Both the position numbers and the translations under genes were made by a program. DNA of 64,000 bases. It comes from Eledone cirrhosa (lineage: Eukaryota). A model generated the notes under the pieces. That model saw only the letters and a program-made list of their open reading frames with translations. It ran no database searches and was not told where the DNA came from. The first letter of the stretch is position 1. The number at the start of each line of letters is the position of its first letter. Below, piece by piece: positions 34,700-51,158 of the stretch. The stretch is from NCBI GenBank assembly GCA_964016885.1, contig OZ024763.1, forward strand, positions 28,768,001 to 28,832,000, written 5' to 3'.

Positions 34700-35498
34700 G
34701 GTGGATTGGCAGTATCGGTAGAGGGTCGGACGCCATGCTTTGCTGCATAGAGTTACGGCCCTTGTCATTCTGAATTCAAATCCCGCCGAGGTTAACTTTG
34801 CCTTTCATCCTTACGGGGTCGATAAAATAAAGTACCAGTAATGCACTGGGTAATTGCTGGCCTTGTGCTTAAAGTAGAAACAATTATTTTAAGAGGGTCG
34901 GTGGATTGGCAGTATCGGTATAGGGTTGGACACCATGCTTTGCTGCATAGAGTTACGGCCCTTGTCATTCTGAGTTCAAATCCCGCCGAGGTTAACTTTG
35001 CCTTTCATCCTTACGGGGTCGATAAAATAAAGTACCAGTAATGCACTGTAATAATTGAATTGCTGGCCTTGTGCCTAAAGTAGAAACAATTATTTTAAGA
35101 GGGTCGGTGGATTGGCAGTATCGGTAGAGGGCCGGATGCCATGCTTTGACGCATCGAGTTACGGCCCTTGTCATTCTGAGTTCAAATCCCGCGAGGTTAA
35201 CTTTGCCTTTCATCCTTACGGGGTCGATAAAATAAAGTACCAGTAATGCACTGGGATAATTGAATTGCTGGCCTTGTGCCTAAAGTAGAAACAATTATTT
35301 TAAGAGGGTCGCTGGATTGGCAGTATCGGTAGAGGGTCGGATGCCATGCTTTGACGCATCGAGTTACGGCCCTTGTCATTCTGAGTTCAAATCCCGCCGA
35401 GGTTAACTTTGCCTTTCATCCTTACGGGGTCGATAAAATAAAGTACCAGTAATGTACTGGGGTAATTTCTGGCCTTGTGTCAAAAGTAGAAACAATTA
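34700..35498 (+). mobile_element. Tandem tetramer of SINE family 1
   Basis: Units start at 34700, 34900, 35106 and 35311, joined by the identical linker TTTAAGAGGGTC. Confidence 0.92.
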
Positions 35499-35939
35499 TA
35501 TATATATATTTACAGTTTAGATTATTTTCGCATTACCAATAGTTTCGTGGACGTAAATATGAAGTGATTAAAACATTAGAGAGCGCGAGATAATTTTCTT
35601 AGCGATGTTTGTTCCAGTGTTCTGTTCCATAAACACCAGCATTACCACAAACTGCAACCTCACCACCGCCTACATATACCCAAACACTGCTACCATCAGC
35701 TTCCTTCAACCACAAACACCTACACCACCACCAACACAACTATTTTAACCCTAACCATCGCTACCATCAATTCTCTAACCAGCAACAGCAACGACAAGAG
35801 CACAACAACAACCACCACCACTAGCACCATCAGTACACCATCGAAACTACCACCATCGCTCTACCACCACCACCAACACAACTATTTTAACCCTAACCAT
35901 CACAACCATCAATTTTCTAACCAGCATCAGCAGGATTAG

Positions 35940-41526: not shown

Positions 41527-41711
<185 letters not shown>

Positions 41712-41712
41712 A

Positions 41713-42612
41713 GAAGATCACAGAAAATTGATTACTCCACTAATAATTATTTTATAAATAGTTGTTCCGTAATTAATTAATTATTTCATTAGTATAACAT
41801 CCCTTGTGAAACAGGTTTATGTTTTGAAGTTCTGCCCGATCTGCTGAAAGGGTTTGAATTTTGAAATTTAAACTTGTCTAGGCACCAGGCAGTTGCCATT
41901 TTACGTCTGTAAGTATAGATTTAATATTTAAAATTCTCTAGATCGATACAGACGGACTATATGTACTTGAATTAAGGTATTTCTATCTGGCTAAAAAATT
42001 ATTGTCATTTTGCAAAAAAAACACAGTAGTGTTGATCATATATTTTTTAATTTTAAATTTCTAAATTGTAATGTAATGCTCAGAAGTATTTTTCTTAGAG
42101 CTTAATGTTTGTAAATGACTACTAAACTGAAATTATCTGCTCCTACGGTCGAGCTGAATACATAATCACATATTCACGGCTGTTATTTCTAGCGCCATGG
42201 ATATGAGCCAGAATGCTGAGAAGGTCGTGTGCAAAAGCACATGTATTAGGCTTGCGACAGATCAGTCTTAAGATACTATCTTAAGAGAAGTGATTTTAAT
42301 TTCTGGGTGCCTGCCGAAGATCACAGAAAATTGATTAATCCACTAATAATTATTTTATAAATAGTTGTTCCGTAATTAATTAATTATTTCATTAGTATAA
42401 CATCCCTTGTGAAACAGGTTTATGTTTTGAAGTTCTGCCCGATCTGCTGAAAAGGTTTGAATTTTGAAATTTAAACTTGTCTAGGCACCAGGCAGTTGCC
42501 ATTTTACGTTTGAATTAAGGTATTTCTATCTGGCTAAAAGATTATTGTCATTTTGCAAAAAAAAACACAGTAGTGTTGAACATATATTTTTTAATTTTTA
42601 ATTTCTAAATTG

Positions 42613-42616
<4 letters not shown>
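41713..42616 (-). mobile_element. Unclassified direct-repeat (1.5-mer) element, probably retrotransposed; one repeat lacks a 60-nt intron
   Basis: Repeats 41713-42072 and 42316-42616 are near-identical except for 41907-41966, which reads GTACAT...CTTACAG on the minus strand; (TA)n on both sides. Confidence 0.7.
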
Positions 42617-42681
<65 letters not shown>

Positions 42682-47609: not shown

Positions 47610-48672
47610 ACCATCCAGCCAGTTACCTAGATATAGAGCCACACAACCACACCACCTCCACCCGACCACCCTGCCAGTTATCAACCCTGCCCTCCATTCA
47701 ATGACCCTGCCCACTAACCAGCCAGTTACCTAGATATAGAGCCACACACCACACCACCTCCACCCGACCACCCTGCCAGTTATCAACCCTGCCCTCCATT
47801 CAATGACCCTGCCCACTAACCAGCCAGTTACCTAGCTATAGAGCCACACAACCACACAGCCCTCCAAGTCAAACTACCATCCACCCGACCACCCTGCCAG
47901 TAATCAGCCCTGCCCTCCACCCAATGACCCTGCCCACTGTCAAACCCTGCCCGCTAACCAGCCAGTTACCTAGCTATAGAGCCACACAACCACACAACCC
48001 TCCAAGCCAAACTGCCATCCACCCGACCACCCTGCCAGTTATCAACCCTGCCCTCCACCCAATGACTCTGCCCACTGTCAAACCCTGCCCGCTAACCAGC
48101 CAGTTACCTAGCTATAGAGCCACACAACCACACAACCCTCCAAGCCAAACTGCCATCCACCCGACCACCCTGCCAGTTATCAACCCTGCCCTCCACCCAA
48201 TGACTCTGCCCACTGTCAAACCCTGCCCGCTAACCAGCCAGTTACCTAGCTATAGAGCCACACAACCACACAACCCTCCAAGCCAAACTGCCATCCACCC
48301 GACCACCCTGCCAGTTATCAACCCTGTCCTCCACCCAATGACCCTGCCCACTGTTAAACCCTGCCCGCTAACCAGCCAGTTACCTAGCTATCGAGCCACA
48401 CAACCACACAGCCCTCCAACCCAAACTGCCATCCACCCGACCACCCTGCCAGTTATCAACCCTGCCCTCCACTCAATGACCCTGCCCGCTGTCAAACCCT
48501 GCCCATTAACCAGCCAGTTACCCAGTTATAGAACCACACAACCCTCCAAGCCAAACTGCCATCCACCCGACCACCCTGCCAGTTATCAACCCTGCCCTCC
48601 ACCCAATGACCCTGCCCACTGTCAAACCCTGCCCGCCAACCAGCCAGTTAGCTAGCTATCGAGCCACACAAC
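47610..48672. repeat. Tandem repeat: two units of about 101-106 bp, then about six 138-bp units
   Basis: CCAGCCAGTTACCTAG..CCACCCGACCACCCTGCCAG..ACCCTGCCC; period 138 (47924 to 48062). Confidence 0.92.
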
Positions 48673-48928
48673 CAGCTAGCTATTGGCCAGCCAGCAAGCC
48701 CTCGGACAGCCTGCTAACTATCTATCCAACCAAATAGATACATAACTATCCAGCCGTCCAGTTAGCTCTATAGCCAGCCAGCTATTTACCCAGTTAGCTA
48801 CTGTGTATAGTCGTAGGTACTGTTTAGAATTTTCCTTTCAGTCTTTGTACAGCAGTAATAATGAGAAAATTAGTTATAGAATCATTAGAAAATCTGACTG
48901 ATAAAATGACAAATCAGTCAATTATATT

Positions 48929-49025: not shown

Positions 49026-49032
49026 TGCGGCT

Positions 49033-51158
49033 AGCCAGCTCAGCGCCTATGGTGGTGAGTAGGGAGGTAGCCCTAGGTCCGGGGACACCAGAAGTCTCCA
49101 CTGCTACAGGTAGCCAGGTATGTGCCTATGGTGGTGAGTAAGGAGGTAGCCCTAAAGCCGAGGACACCAGAAGTCTCCACTGCTAGGGATAGCCAGCTCA
49201 GCGCCTATGGTGGTGAGTAAGGAGGTAGCAGCCCTAGGGCCGAGGACACCAGAAGTCTCCACTGCTACAGGTAGCCAGCTCAGCGCCTATGGTGGTGAGT
49301 AGGGAGGTAGCCCTAGGGCCGAGGACACCAGAAGTCTCCACTGCTAGGGGTTGCCAGCTCAGCGCCCGGGTGGTGAGTAGGGAGGTAGCCCTAGAGCCGA
49401 GGACACCAGAAGTCTCCACTGCTAGGGATAGCCAGCTCAGCGCCTATGGTGATGAGTAGGGAGGTAGCCCTAGGGCCGAGGACACCAGAAGTCTCCACTG
49501 CTAGGGGTAGCCAGCTCAGCGCCTATGGTGGTGAGTAGGGAGGTAGCCCTAGGGCCGAGGACACCAGAAGTCTCCACTGCTAGGGGTAGCCAGCTCAGCG
49601 CCTATGGTGGTGAGTAAGGAGGTAGCCCTAGGGCCGAGGACGCCAGAAGTCTCCACTGCTAGGGATAGCCAGCTCAGCGCCTATGGTGGTGAGTAGGGAG
49701 GTAGCCCTAGGGCCGAGGACACCAGAAGTCTCCACTGCTAGGGGTAGCCAGCTCAGCGCCTATGGTGGTGAGTAAGGAGGTAGCCCTAGGGCCGAGGACG
49801 CCAGAAGTCTCCACTGCTAGGGATAGCCAGCTCAGCGCCTATGGTGGTGAGTAGGGAGGTAGCCCTAGGGCCGAGGACACCAGAAGTCTCCACTGCTAGG
49901 GGTAGCCAGCTCAGCGCCTATGGTGGTGAGTAAGGAGGTAGCCCTAGGGCCGAGGACGCCAGAAGTCTCCACTGCTAGGGATAGCCAGCTCAGCGCCTAT
50001 GGTGGTGAGTAGGGAGGTAGCCCTAGGGCCGAGGACACCAGAAGTCTCCACTGCTAGGGGTAGCCAGCTCAGCGCCTATGGTGGTGAGTAAGGAGGTAGC
50101 CCTAGGGCCGAGGACGCCAGAAGTCTCCACTGCTAGGGGTAGCCAGCTCAGCGCCTATGGTGGTGAGTAGGGAGGTAGCCCTAGGGCCGAGGACACCAGA
50201 AGTCTCCACTGCTACAGGTAGCCAGCTCAGTGCCTATGGTGGTGAGTAGGGAGGTAGCCCTAGGGCCGAGGACACCAGAAGTCTCCACTGCTAGGGGTAG
50301 CCAGCTCAGCGCCTATGGTGGTGAGTAAGGAGGTAGCCCTAGGGCCGAGGACGCCAGAAGTCTCCACTGCTAGGAGTAGCCAGCTCAGCGCCTATGGTGG
50401 TGAGTAGGGAGGTAGCCCTAGGGCCGAGGACACCAGAAGTCTCCACTGCTAGGGGTAGCCAGCTCAGCGCCTATGGTGGTGAGTAAGGAGGTAGCCCTAG
50501 GGCCGAGGACGCCAGAAGTCTCCACTGCTAGGGGTAGCCAGCTCAGCGCCTATGGTGGTGAGTAGGGAGGTAGCCCTAGGGCCGAGGACACCAGAAGTCT
50601 CCACTGCTAGGGGTAGCCAGCTCAGCGCCTATGGTGGTGAGTAAGGAGGTAGCCCTAGGGCCGAGGACGCCAGAAGTCTCCACTGCTAGGGGTAGCCAGC
50701 TCAGCGCCTATGGTGGTGAGTAGGGAGGTAGCCCTAGGGCCGAGGACACCAGAAGTCTCCACTGCTAGGGGTAGCCAGCTCAGCGCCTATGGTGGTGAGT
50801 AAGGAGGTAGCCCTAGGGCCGAGGACGCCAGAAGTCTCCACTGCTAGGGGTAGCCAGCTCAGCGCCTATGGTGATGAGTAAGGAGGTAGCCCTAGGGCCG
50901 AGGACACCAGAAGTCTCCACTGCTAGGGGTAGCCAGCTCAGCACCTTTGGTGGTGAGTAGGGAGGTAGCCCTAGGACCGAGGACACCAGAAGTCTCCACT
51001 GCTAGGGGTTGCCAGCTCAGCGCCCGGGTGGTGAGTAGGGAGGTAGCCCTAGGACCGAGGACACCAGAAGTCTCCACTGCTAGGGGTAGCCAGCTCAGCG
51101 CCTATGGTGATGAGTAAGGAGGTAGCCCTAGGGTCGAGGACACCAGAAGTCTCCACTG
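49033..51158. repeat. 79-bp GC-rich satellite, about 27 copies, with 158-bp dimeric structure
   Basis: Unit GCCAGCTCAGCGCCTATGGTGGTGAGTA(G/A)GGAGGTAGCCCTAGGGCCGAGGAC(A/G)CCAGAAGTCTCCACTGCTAGGGGTA. Confidence 0.97.

What the first reader, a model, noticed from the sequence alone, without database searches (positions are those of the whole stretch)
41713..42616. Direct-repeat element with one spliced and one unspliced copy of a 60-nt GT-AG intron, followed by a small ORF
Seen: the two repeats differ by exactly 41907-41966. The breakpoints cannot slide, and the minus strand reads CAA|GTACAT...ATACTTACAG|ACG, a canonical intron. In transcript orientation the upstream repeat is spliced and the downstream one retains the intron. 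Seven nt after the acceptor is an ATG in the context AAAATGG, opening a 36-codon ORF (MATAWCLDKFKFQNSN(L/P)FSRSGRTSKHKPVSQGMLY*) that is intact in both repeats. The 243-bp spacer is hairpin-rich (TCTTAAGATA-C-TATCTTAAGA; TGTGC-AAAA-GCACA). Established: Penelope carries a short intron in its pLTR and PLEs form partial tandem repeats. Inference: a Pol II-transcribed, spliced, reverse-transcribed small mobile element of about 600-bp unit length, captured from a partially spliced RNA or from two templates. It has no recognisable hammerhead and may be an undescribed class.
Basis: partly seen in the sequence, partly recalled or inferred. Interest (0 to 1): 0.75.

Follow-up and report, generated by a model that had tools for sequence, protein, structure and literature searches.

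The report
Long-armed hammerhead retrozyme, chance-looking intron
This is one copy of an abundant, protein-free jumping repeat that carries a predicted self-cutting hammerhead RNA with two unusually long arms and is likely pasted in by Penelope-type enzymes; the 60-base 'intron' lies on the opposite strand, is missing in this copy only, and is more likely a one-off deletion than a splicing product.

Summary
The sequence observation holds: the repeats differ by 41907-41966, GT...AG on the minus strand, no sliding. The reading mostly fails. The RNA strand is the plus strand, and it does carry a type I hammerhead (42306-42489) whose stems II and III are stretched to about 90 and 70 nt; stem I and the C3-G8/U3-A8 pair covary over 25 copies. 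The element is one copy of a 514-621-nt tandem, TA-targeted, non-coding superfamily (at least 1,519 motif hits) with two fixed ends, mirror arms, and copy ends that pile up at the predicted cut (31 vs 1). Two copies are fused directly to a Neptune-type Penelope element. The 'spliced' junction occurs once against 300 retained; GT, AG and ATG are lost in sister subfamilies; the donor lacks -1G and +5G. I give about 25% to antisense splicing, 70% to a skip or deletion. Verdict: variant of animal non-LTR retrozymes. This scan has already noted similar long-stem and two-armed retrozymes elsewhere in this genome.

The parts
41713..42616 (+). One insertion of the tandem non-coding element (about 1.6 units, 904 bp with the 60-nt gap); RNA sense is the plus strand; both ends in (TA)n
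42306..42489 (+). Complete type I hammerhead: stem I 42306-42313 with 42482-42489; core CCGAAGA 42314-42320 (U4C variant); long stem II insert; GAAA 42411-42414; long stem III; GUC triplet 42479-42481
42481..42482 (+). Predicted self-cleavage site (between these bases); family copies pile up just inside it
   Evidence: hammerhead numbering (established)
41713..41886 (+). 5'-truncated hammerhead (lacks the 5' strand of stem I and C3/C4); its cut position would be 41878/41879
41879..42481 (+). One full cut-to-cut monomer, 603 nt, retaining the 60-nt segment
   Evidence: inference from the two GUC positions
41907..41966 (-). 60-nt segment, GT...AG on the antisense strand; donor CAA|GTACAT lacks -1G and +5G; on the plus strand it covers most of a hairpin
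42509..42510 (.). Junction that lacks the 60 nt; unique in the genome
41905..41957 (+). Predicted hairpin; the gap starts 2 nt inside its 5' arm and ends 9 nt past its 3' arm
41789..41899 (-). 36-codon frame, antisense to hammerhead stems I-III; not conserved (second copy 42392-42502)
42133..42133 (+). Fixed end S1 of the family (predicted first reverse-transcription start); internal in this copy
42610..42619 (+). Fixed end S2 (predicted second start, about 60-80 nt from S1), joined to (TA)n; internal twin at about 42069-42075
42138..42196 (+). Superfamily-wide block: GCTC/GAGC hairpin plus 16-nt invariant motif; possibly a promoter element (untested)
41707..41715 (+). Nine bases matching an S2 start, overlapping the left end by GAA: possibly a tiny second arm (tentative)

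Best explanation
The element is a non-coding tandem repeat with a predicted self-cleaving type I hammerhead on the plus strand (a retrozyme variant) that is likely copied into (TA)n by Neptune-type Penelope reverse transcriptases, and the 60-nt gap is likely a one-off skip or deletion whose GT-AG ends on the antisense strand are coincidence. Steps: (1, inferred) tandem copies are transcribed on the plus strand; (2, predicted from structure and copy ends) the hammerhead cuts each unit after GUC; (3, inferred) cut linear RNA gives short copies that stop at the cut, while circles or uncut multimers give copies longer than one unit; (4, shown as a genomic pattern, enzyme inferred) copying starts at two fixed sites, usually one per arm, primed in (TA)n; (5, inferred) in this copy the first 170 nt copied lost 60 nt across a hairpin, during copying or later.
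For: Hammerhead: RNAalifold finds stems I and III unaided in 25 copies; 13 of 32 pairs change on both sides, 6 of 8 in stem I, 93.6% of cells paired vs 17-51% when slid; C3-G8 swaps with U3-A8 (10 vs 14), GAAAC 25 of 25, GUC 24 and GUA 1. Plus strand folds lower than minus in 15 of 15 monomers. Arm ends: 31 in the 44 nt before the cut zone's edge vs 1 in the 44 nt after, 91 arms of 59 loci picked by coordinate. 122 of 130 fixed ends touch TA; 31 of 49 two-armed loci pair S1 with S2, none S1 with S1. Direct fusions to PLE family B at 2 of 97 loci, each with matching divergence in both halves (1.6% vs 1.7-2.4%; 3.0-3.7% vs 3.7-4.1%). Gap: 1 spliced junction vs 300 retained; 40 other hits where the donor G is absent, 27 of the 30 inspected starting ATAC/ATAT in a subfamily spread over many loci; GT+AG in 60 of 64 close and 0 of 58 diverged monomers; 16 other deletion calls, 5 without microhomology, none GT-AG; chance of GT-AG on either strand 0.79% per deletion; donors lacking both -1G and +5G are 6 of 1,990 human introns.
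Against: The gap uses the best-matching of 24 GT sites on the minus strand (6 of 9 to the U1 consensus) and a good TTACAG acceptor; within this family alone (about 200 loci, about 17 deletions by extrapolation) chance expects only about 0.13 GT-AG and 0.04 GTR-YAG gaps. The breakpoints are not at the hairpin base and share no microhomology. The focal core is U4C, reported to lower activity in vitro, with U.U at the base of stem II. No excess of A-to-G on the plus strand; T-to-C is higher (22 vs 42; hand estimate p about 0.05), a weak trend the other way. The pile-up of ends could reflect stalling at stem I rather than cleavage, and the loci were chosen for holding the donor region. Unit and PLE B share no clear homology (11 of 300 shuffles as high). 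No RNA data.
Confidence: 0.68

Rival explanations
1. Same retrozyme, but the gap is a real spliceosomal excision from an antisense transcript that was written back into this one copy (as a splint or second template during copying, or by later recombination with a cDNA).
For: Exact GT-AG ends with no sliding; best donor match on that strand and a YAG acceptor; about half of loci hold both orientations, so antisense RNA should be made (41 of 79 loci with inversions); the only copy broken at the acceptor is this one.
Against: Donor lacks -1G and +5G (0.3% of human introns); single event among about 300 junctions; sites not conserved; the AG is the reverse complement of a plus-strand stem arm; the copy's ends are those of an ordinary plus-strand-templated insertion; across the superfamily about one chance GT-AG gap is expected (extrapolated).
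Confidence: 0.25
2. One reading: a Pol II, spliced, sORF-coding small element of a new class whose transposition RNA is the minus strand, caught partly spliced.
For: GT-AG gap just before an ATG; 5' repeat spliced and 3' repeat retained in that orientation; Penelope has a 5'-UTR intron; 36-codon frame intact in most close monomers.
Against: Hammerhead, fold and fixed 3' ends all mark the plus strand; in D. virilis Penelope the intron and hammerhead are on the same strand; frame falls to 10 codons at 89-91% identity and ATG is absent in 55 of 58 diverged monomers; 1 of 301 junctions spliced.
Confidence: 0.03
3. The junction is an assembly or polishing error rather than a real allele.
For: Unique in the assembly; no listed contig of three public runs bridges it.
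Against: Those runs are one sample of unknown kind and possibly another individual, contigs drop rare forms and 50 pieces were not shown; the repeat with the gap carries its own private substitutions like any aged copy.
Confidence: 0.04

Closest known systems
Animal non-LTR retrozymes (Cervera and de la Pena 2020, PMC7229834, passages and parts 2-4 of 6 read; Li, Clavereau and Pollet, bioRxiv 10.64898/2026.07.22.740005, parts 1-3 of 5 read)
   Same: Non-coding, low-GC tandem units, one type I hammerhead per unit, dispersed monomers to multimers, co-existing with PLEs; axolotl HHR_Amex2 also has U.U at the base of stem II.
   Different: Units 514-621 nt against 150-450 (within the 51-972 range of Li et al.); stems II and III both long instead of a 4-bp stem II and 1-2-bp stem III; U3-A8 and U4C cores; no homology to a pLTR found; fixed paired ends, mirror arms and direct fusions with an autonomous PLE are not described in the parts read.
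PLE hammerhead variants (Cervera and de la Pena 2014, PMC4209133, parts 1-2 of 4 read)
   Same: U3-A8 core swap (Schistosoma Cercyon); large helix III (fungal and protist PLEs); larger helix II.
   Different: Here both arms are long in one metazoan motif; in D. virilis Penelope the intron abuts helix I on the same strand, here the GT-AG segment is antisense.
Neptune/Naiad-type Penelope-like elements (Craig et al. 2021, PMC8557442, passages and sections 6, 15 read) and Poseidon PAc (Frangieh et al. 2024, PMC11167929, parts 1-2 of 4 read)
   Same: Partial tandems, inverted 5'-truncated arms, (TA)n targeting, two internal RT start sites that define a tail.
   Different: No RT or GIY-YIG frame; tail 60-80 nt rather than 30-40; the element needs a helper (family B has the CX4CxxC linker of Neptune/Nematis).

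Membership tests
Non-LTR retrozyme | Tandem units, one type I hammerhead per unit | tested here: met
   periods 514-621 nt in 122 monomers
Non-LTR retrozyme | No protein-coding capacity, low GC | tested here: met
   no conserved frame; hammerhead region 32% GC
Non-LTR retrozyme | Canonical helix sizes with loop 1-loop 2 contact, unit 150-450 bp (2020 description) | tested here: not met
   stem II insert 90 nt here (shorter in sisters), stem III loop region about 60 nt, unit 603 nt; size is inside the 51-972 bp range of the 2026 preprint
Non-LTR retrozyme | At least two consecutive complete hammerheads ('active' copy) | tested here: inconclusive
   not met by this copy (one complete, one cut); met by other loci such as L008, L021, L113
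Non-LTR retrozyme | Self-cleavage | not testable with these tools
   indirect only: arm ends 31 vs 1 around the predicted cut, in U4C-type (16 of 39) and UUGARAA-type (14 of 38) copies alike
Non-LTR retrozyme | Expressed as linear and circular RNA | not testable with these tools
   no RNA holder listed; copies longer than one unit fit circles or uncut multimers
Penelope-like element (autonomous) | RT plus GIY-YIG frame | tested here: not met
   no such frame in the unit or sisters; PLE sequence meets the element only as neighbours or inner-end fusions
Penelope-like element (insertion signature) | Partial tandems, inverted arms, two terminal start sites, (TA)n targets | tested here: met
Penelope pLTR intron | Intron on the sense strand, same strand as hammerhead, before the RT start codon | tested here: not met
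   segment is antisense to the hammerhead; no RT frame follows
Spliceosomal (U2) intron | GT...AG ends | tested here: met
Spliceosomal (U2) intron | Donor with -1G or +5G | tested here: not met
   CAA|GTACAT; both missing in 6 of 1,990 human introns; host donors not measured
Spliceosomal (U2) intron | Junction reads in RNA; conserved or recurrent use | tested here: inconclusive
   no RNA run available; not conserved and not recurrent in DNA

The most novel reading that the evidence does not exclude
The 60-nt gap is a true splicing event on the antisense RNA of a retrozyme that was written into the first-copied part of a new insertion, so the Penelope enzyme that mobilises these RNAs can use or be guided by RNA of both polarities; together with the direct retrozyme-Neptune fusions this would name the helper enzyme and show it handling two different RNAs in one insertion.
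Probability: 0.22. Interest if true: 0.68.

Novelty: new variant of a known kind. Interest (0 to 1): 0.42.

Why it matters
The papers read propose, but do not show, that Penelope-like elements mobilise animal retrozymes. This family offers testable genomic footprints: copy ends at the predicted cut, paired start sites, and two copies fused end to end with one named autonomous family. The intron itself matters little unless antisense splicing is shown; as it stands it is a caution that a clean GT-AG gap in one repeat copy can arise by chance.

Tried and rejected
Rfam scan: no hammerhead, only simple-repeat matches. No RNA holder listed; three contig sets from one sample, kind unknown, showed no joint over 41907-41966 and no listed bridging contig: no evidence either way. 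tRNA-like reading of the conserved block: ARAGORN found 0 genes, dropped. HDV, twister, pistol or hairpin ribozyme readings of that block: compared by recall only, no fit, dropped. Homology of the unit to autonomous PLEs: none among 40 GIY-YIG loci, only neighbouring sister repeats; 3'-end similarity to family B weak. RNA-editing scars as a strand marker: no plus-strand A-to-G excess. Plus-strand splicing from the perfect GTAAGT at 41909: the gap does not fit it and no other copy breaks there. Deletion catalogue: of 17 calls two are one event in both arms of L213, and L172 and L268 may be reference effects; none was removed before the GT-AG count. Literature: no paper held all of 'intron loss, retrotransposon, antisense, spliced, Penelope'; searches listed no paper on this family, on cephalopod retrozymes or on retrozyme-PLE fusions, judged from listings; supplements were not seen and may hold such cases.

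Full report
Observation. The two repeats align as 41713-41906 with 42316-42509 and 41967-42075 with 42510-42619; the gap is 41907-41966, GT...AG on the minus strand, with no microhomology, and the 36-codon frame is present twice. The insertion sits between long (TA)n tracts. There are five substitutions and one A-run indel between the repeats; two of the substitutions checked are private to the left repeat or unresolved and three to the right, as expected for ageing after insertion.

It is a family. A DNA search of the own 3.0-Gb animal genome gave 117 matches from 40 of 900 candidates. The exact intron-retaining donor junction occurs 300 times; 51 of these places on C1 fall in 33 loci, so about 200 loci in all (my extrapolation). 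A 16-nt motif plus hairpin occurs 1,519 times exactly and marks sister subfamilies 58-97% identical with monomers of 514-621 nt (122 monomers). None carries an RT frame. That the host is a cephalopod is taken from earlier scan notes and recall, not tested.

Which strand is the RNA. Number the unit from window 42133 downwards (U2). Copies begin at two fixed sites, S1 (U2 1) and S2 (U2 about 59-81), and end at variable points, often in an inversion. In 97 loci, 122 of 130 fixed ends touch TA; 31 of 49 two-armed loci pair S1 with S2, 4 pair S2 with S2, none S1 with S1. Autonomous PLEs here likewise put their fixed 3' ends in TA, so the fixed ends are RNA 3' ends and the sense strand is the window's plus strand. 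The plus strand folds lower than the minus strand in 15 of 15 monomers, with z of -1.4 to -8.9 against +1.3 to -4.8 (8 shuffles each). Two internal RT start sites are what Frangieh et al. found in vitro for Poseidon.

The hammerhead. On the plus strand, 42306-42313 pairs with 42482-42489 (stem I); CCGAAGA follows at 42314; GAAA lies 90 nt later at 42411; a long hairpin (stem III) leads to GUC at 42479-42481. In 25 copies chosen across subfamilies RNAalifold recovers stems I and III unaided. With the hammerhead structure named, 93.6% of 799 cells pair, 13 of 32 pairs change on both sides, 6 of 8 in stem I and 3 of 3 in stem II; slid controls pair 17-51% (related sequences inflate the shuffle control). 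The core pair is C-G in 10, U-A in 14, U-G in 1; GAAAC is invariant; the triplet is GUC 24 times and GUA once. U3-A8 is a known PLE variant; U4C, as in this copy, lowers activity in vitro yet works in a viroid in vivo. Among 91 arms of 59 loci taken in coordinate order, 31 end at U2 216-259 and 1 at 260-303; the predicted cut is 255/256 and three arms end at 255. This holds for U4C-type and UUGARAA-type copies (16 of 39, 14 of 38). Stalling at stem I is an alternative, and the loci were selected for holding U2 157-178. The '36-codon frame' is the antisense of stems I-III.

The helper. [quoted passage not shown] Of 185 loci, 37 have PLE DNA nearby, mostly across a TA spacer; four join without one. 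In L271 a retrozyme arm and a family B arm meet at their inner ends through about 10 nt of microhomology, with both outer ends in TA; in L272 family B runs directly into retrozyme sequence. Divergence matches within each fusion. Two sister-subfamily loci (L213, L226) join family A-like DNA. I read these as co-insertions; independent insertions later joined by deletion are possible. No clear homology links the unit to B.

The gap. The spliced junction is found once, exactly or with two mismatches, and this is the only copy broken at the acceptor. Forty other hits lack the donor G; 27 of 30 inspected read AT there, a subfamily that has spread to many loci and mostly also lacks the ATG. GT and AG together are present in 60 of 64 close monomers and 0 of 58 diverged ones; the frame drops to 10 codons at 89-91% identity. 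So intron and frame are not parts the element needs. In 276 arms there are 17 deletion calls of 20 nt or more; only this one is GT-AG, five others also lack microhomology, and one starts at a perfect GTAAGT yet ends in TT. A random deletion of 20-250 nt in the unit is GT-AG on either strand in 0.79% of cases and GTR-YAG in 0.25%. For splicing: the donor is the best of 24 on that strand and the acceptor is good, and inverted loci should make antisense RNA. Against: the donor lacks both -1G and +5G, as 6 of 1,990 human introns do, the AG is the complement of a plus-strand stem arm, the event is single, and a spliced antisense RNA has no ordinary route into a plus-templated cDNA. The gap removes most of a hairpin but not at its base. 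I put skip or deletion at about 0.7 and antisense splicing at about 0.25.

Mechanism, with status. Shown in DNA: tandem units, conserved hammerhead fold, two fixed TA-linked ends, end pile-up at the cut, fusions with PLE B. Predicted: self-cleavage after 42481. Inferred: plus-strand transcription, circles or uncut multimers as templates for long copies, Neptune-type RT as copier, a skip or deletion for the gap. Of 164 private substitutions in multi-repeat loci 139 are in one repeat, 15 in all and 10 in some, which fits one template per insertion followed by ageing but does not prove a circle. No plus-strand editing signal was seen (A>G 22, T>C 42).

Comparison and novelty. It works like an animal non-LTR retrozyme and meets the sequence-level tests except helix sizes and the 2020 size range; cleavage and circles are untested. 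It is not an autonomous PLE and the gap is not a Penelope-type pLTR intron. My searches listed no paper on this family or on such fusions; supplements were not seen. Earlier notes of this scan describe several two-armed retrozymes in this genome, a 591-nt U3-A8 repeat and a U3-A8 motif with long stem III, possibly this superfamily; sequence look-ups found none. Verdict: new variant of a known kind, interest 0.42.

Noticed in passing
L271:1603-3813 and L272:4357-8022: Retrozyme copies fused without a TA spacer to Neptune-type PLE family B, with matching divergence in both halves; candidate direct evidence for the helper element.
   Followed up: yes
L226:933-1997 and L213:1130-2400: Sister-subfamily copies joined directly to family A-like PLE end sequence; different subfamilies may use different helpers.
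   Followed up: partly
window 41909-41914 (+): Perfect donor GTAAGT on the RNA strand 30 nt after the cut; sisters have GTGAGT, more distant ones lack it. No copy was found spliced from it.
   Followed up: partly
window 42178-42193; L062, L143, L146, L152; window 15643 and 16001: The 16-nt motif recurs in otherwise unrelated hammerhead-bearing repeats on the same strand as the core, and in non-repeat-looking DNA; possibly a host promoter element.
   Followed up: partly
L247:1499-2003, L127, L172: Three other deletion calls also start with GT on the cDNA strand (4 of 17 with the focal one); a copying bias at template AC is possible.
   Followed up: no
U2 413-426 (window 41708-41721 equivalent): Small second cluster of copy ends at the hammerhead core, including this copy (4 of 28 ends beyond 260 in the unbiased set).
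   Followed up: partly
window 2958-7916 (-): LINE-like element: endonuclease (PF03372), RT (PF00078) and zf-RVT frames plus a 506-aa upstream frame without Pfam match.
   Followed up: no
window 34700-35499, 47615-48674, 49032-51158, 12170-12821: Tandem arrays of 205, 102/138, 79 and 48 bp units; the 205-bp unit looks SINE-derived (recall).
   Followed up: no
L052:4809-7622, L054:1775-5062: Long open Neptune-type PLE frames (938 and 1,096 aa stop to stop), candidates for in vitro work.
   Followed up: no
L020, L052, L062, L117, L152, L153, L155, L164: Many other hammerhead-like motifs of ordinary size in flanking repeats of the fetched loci.
   Followed up: no
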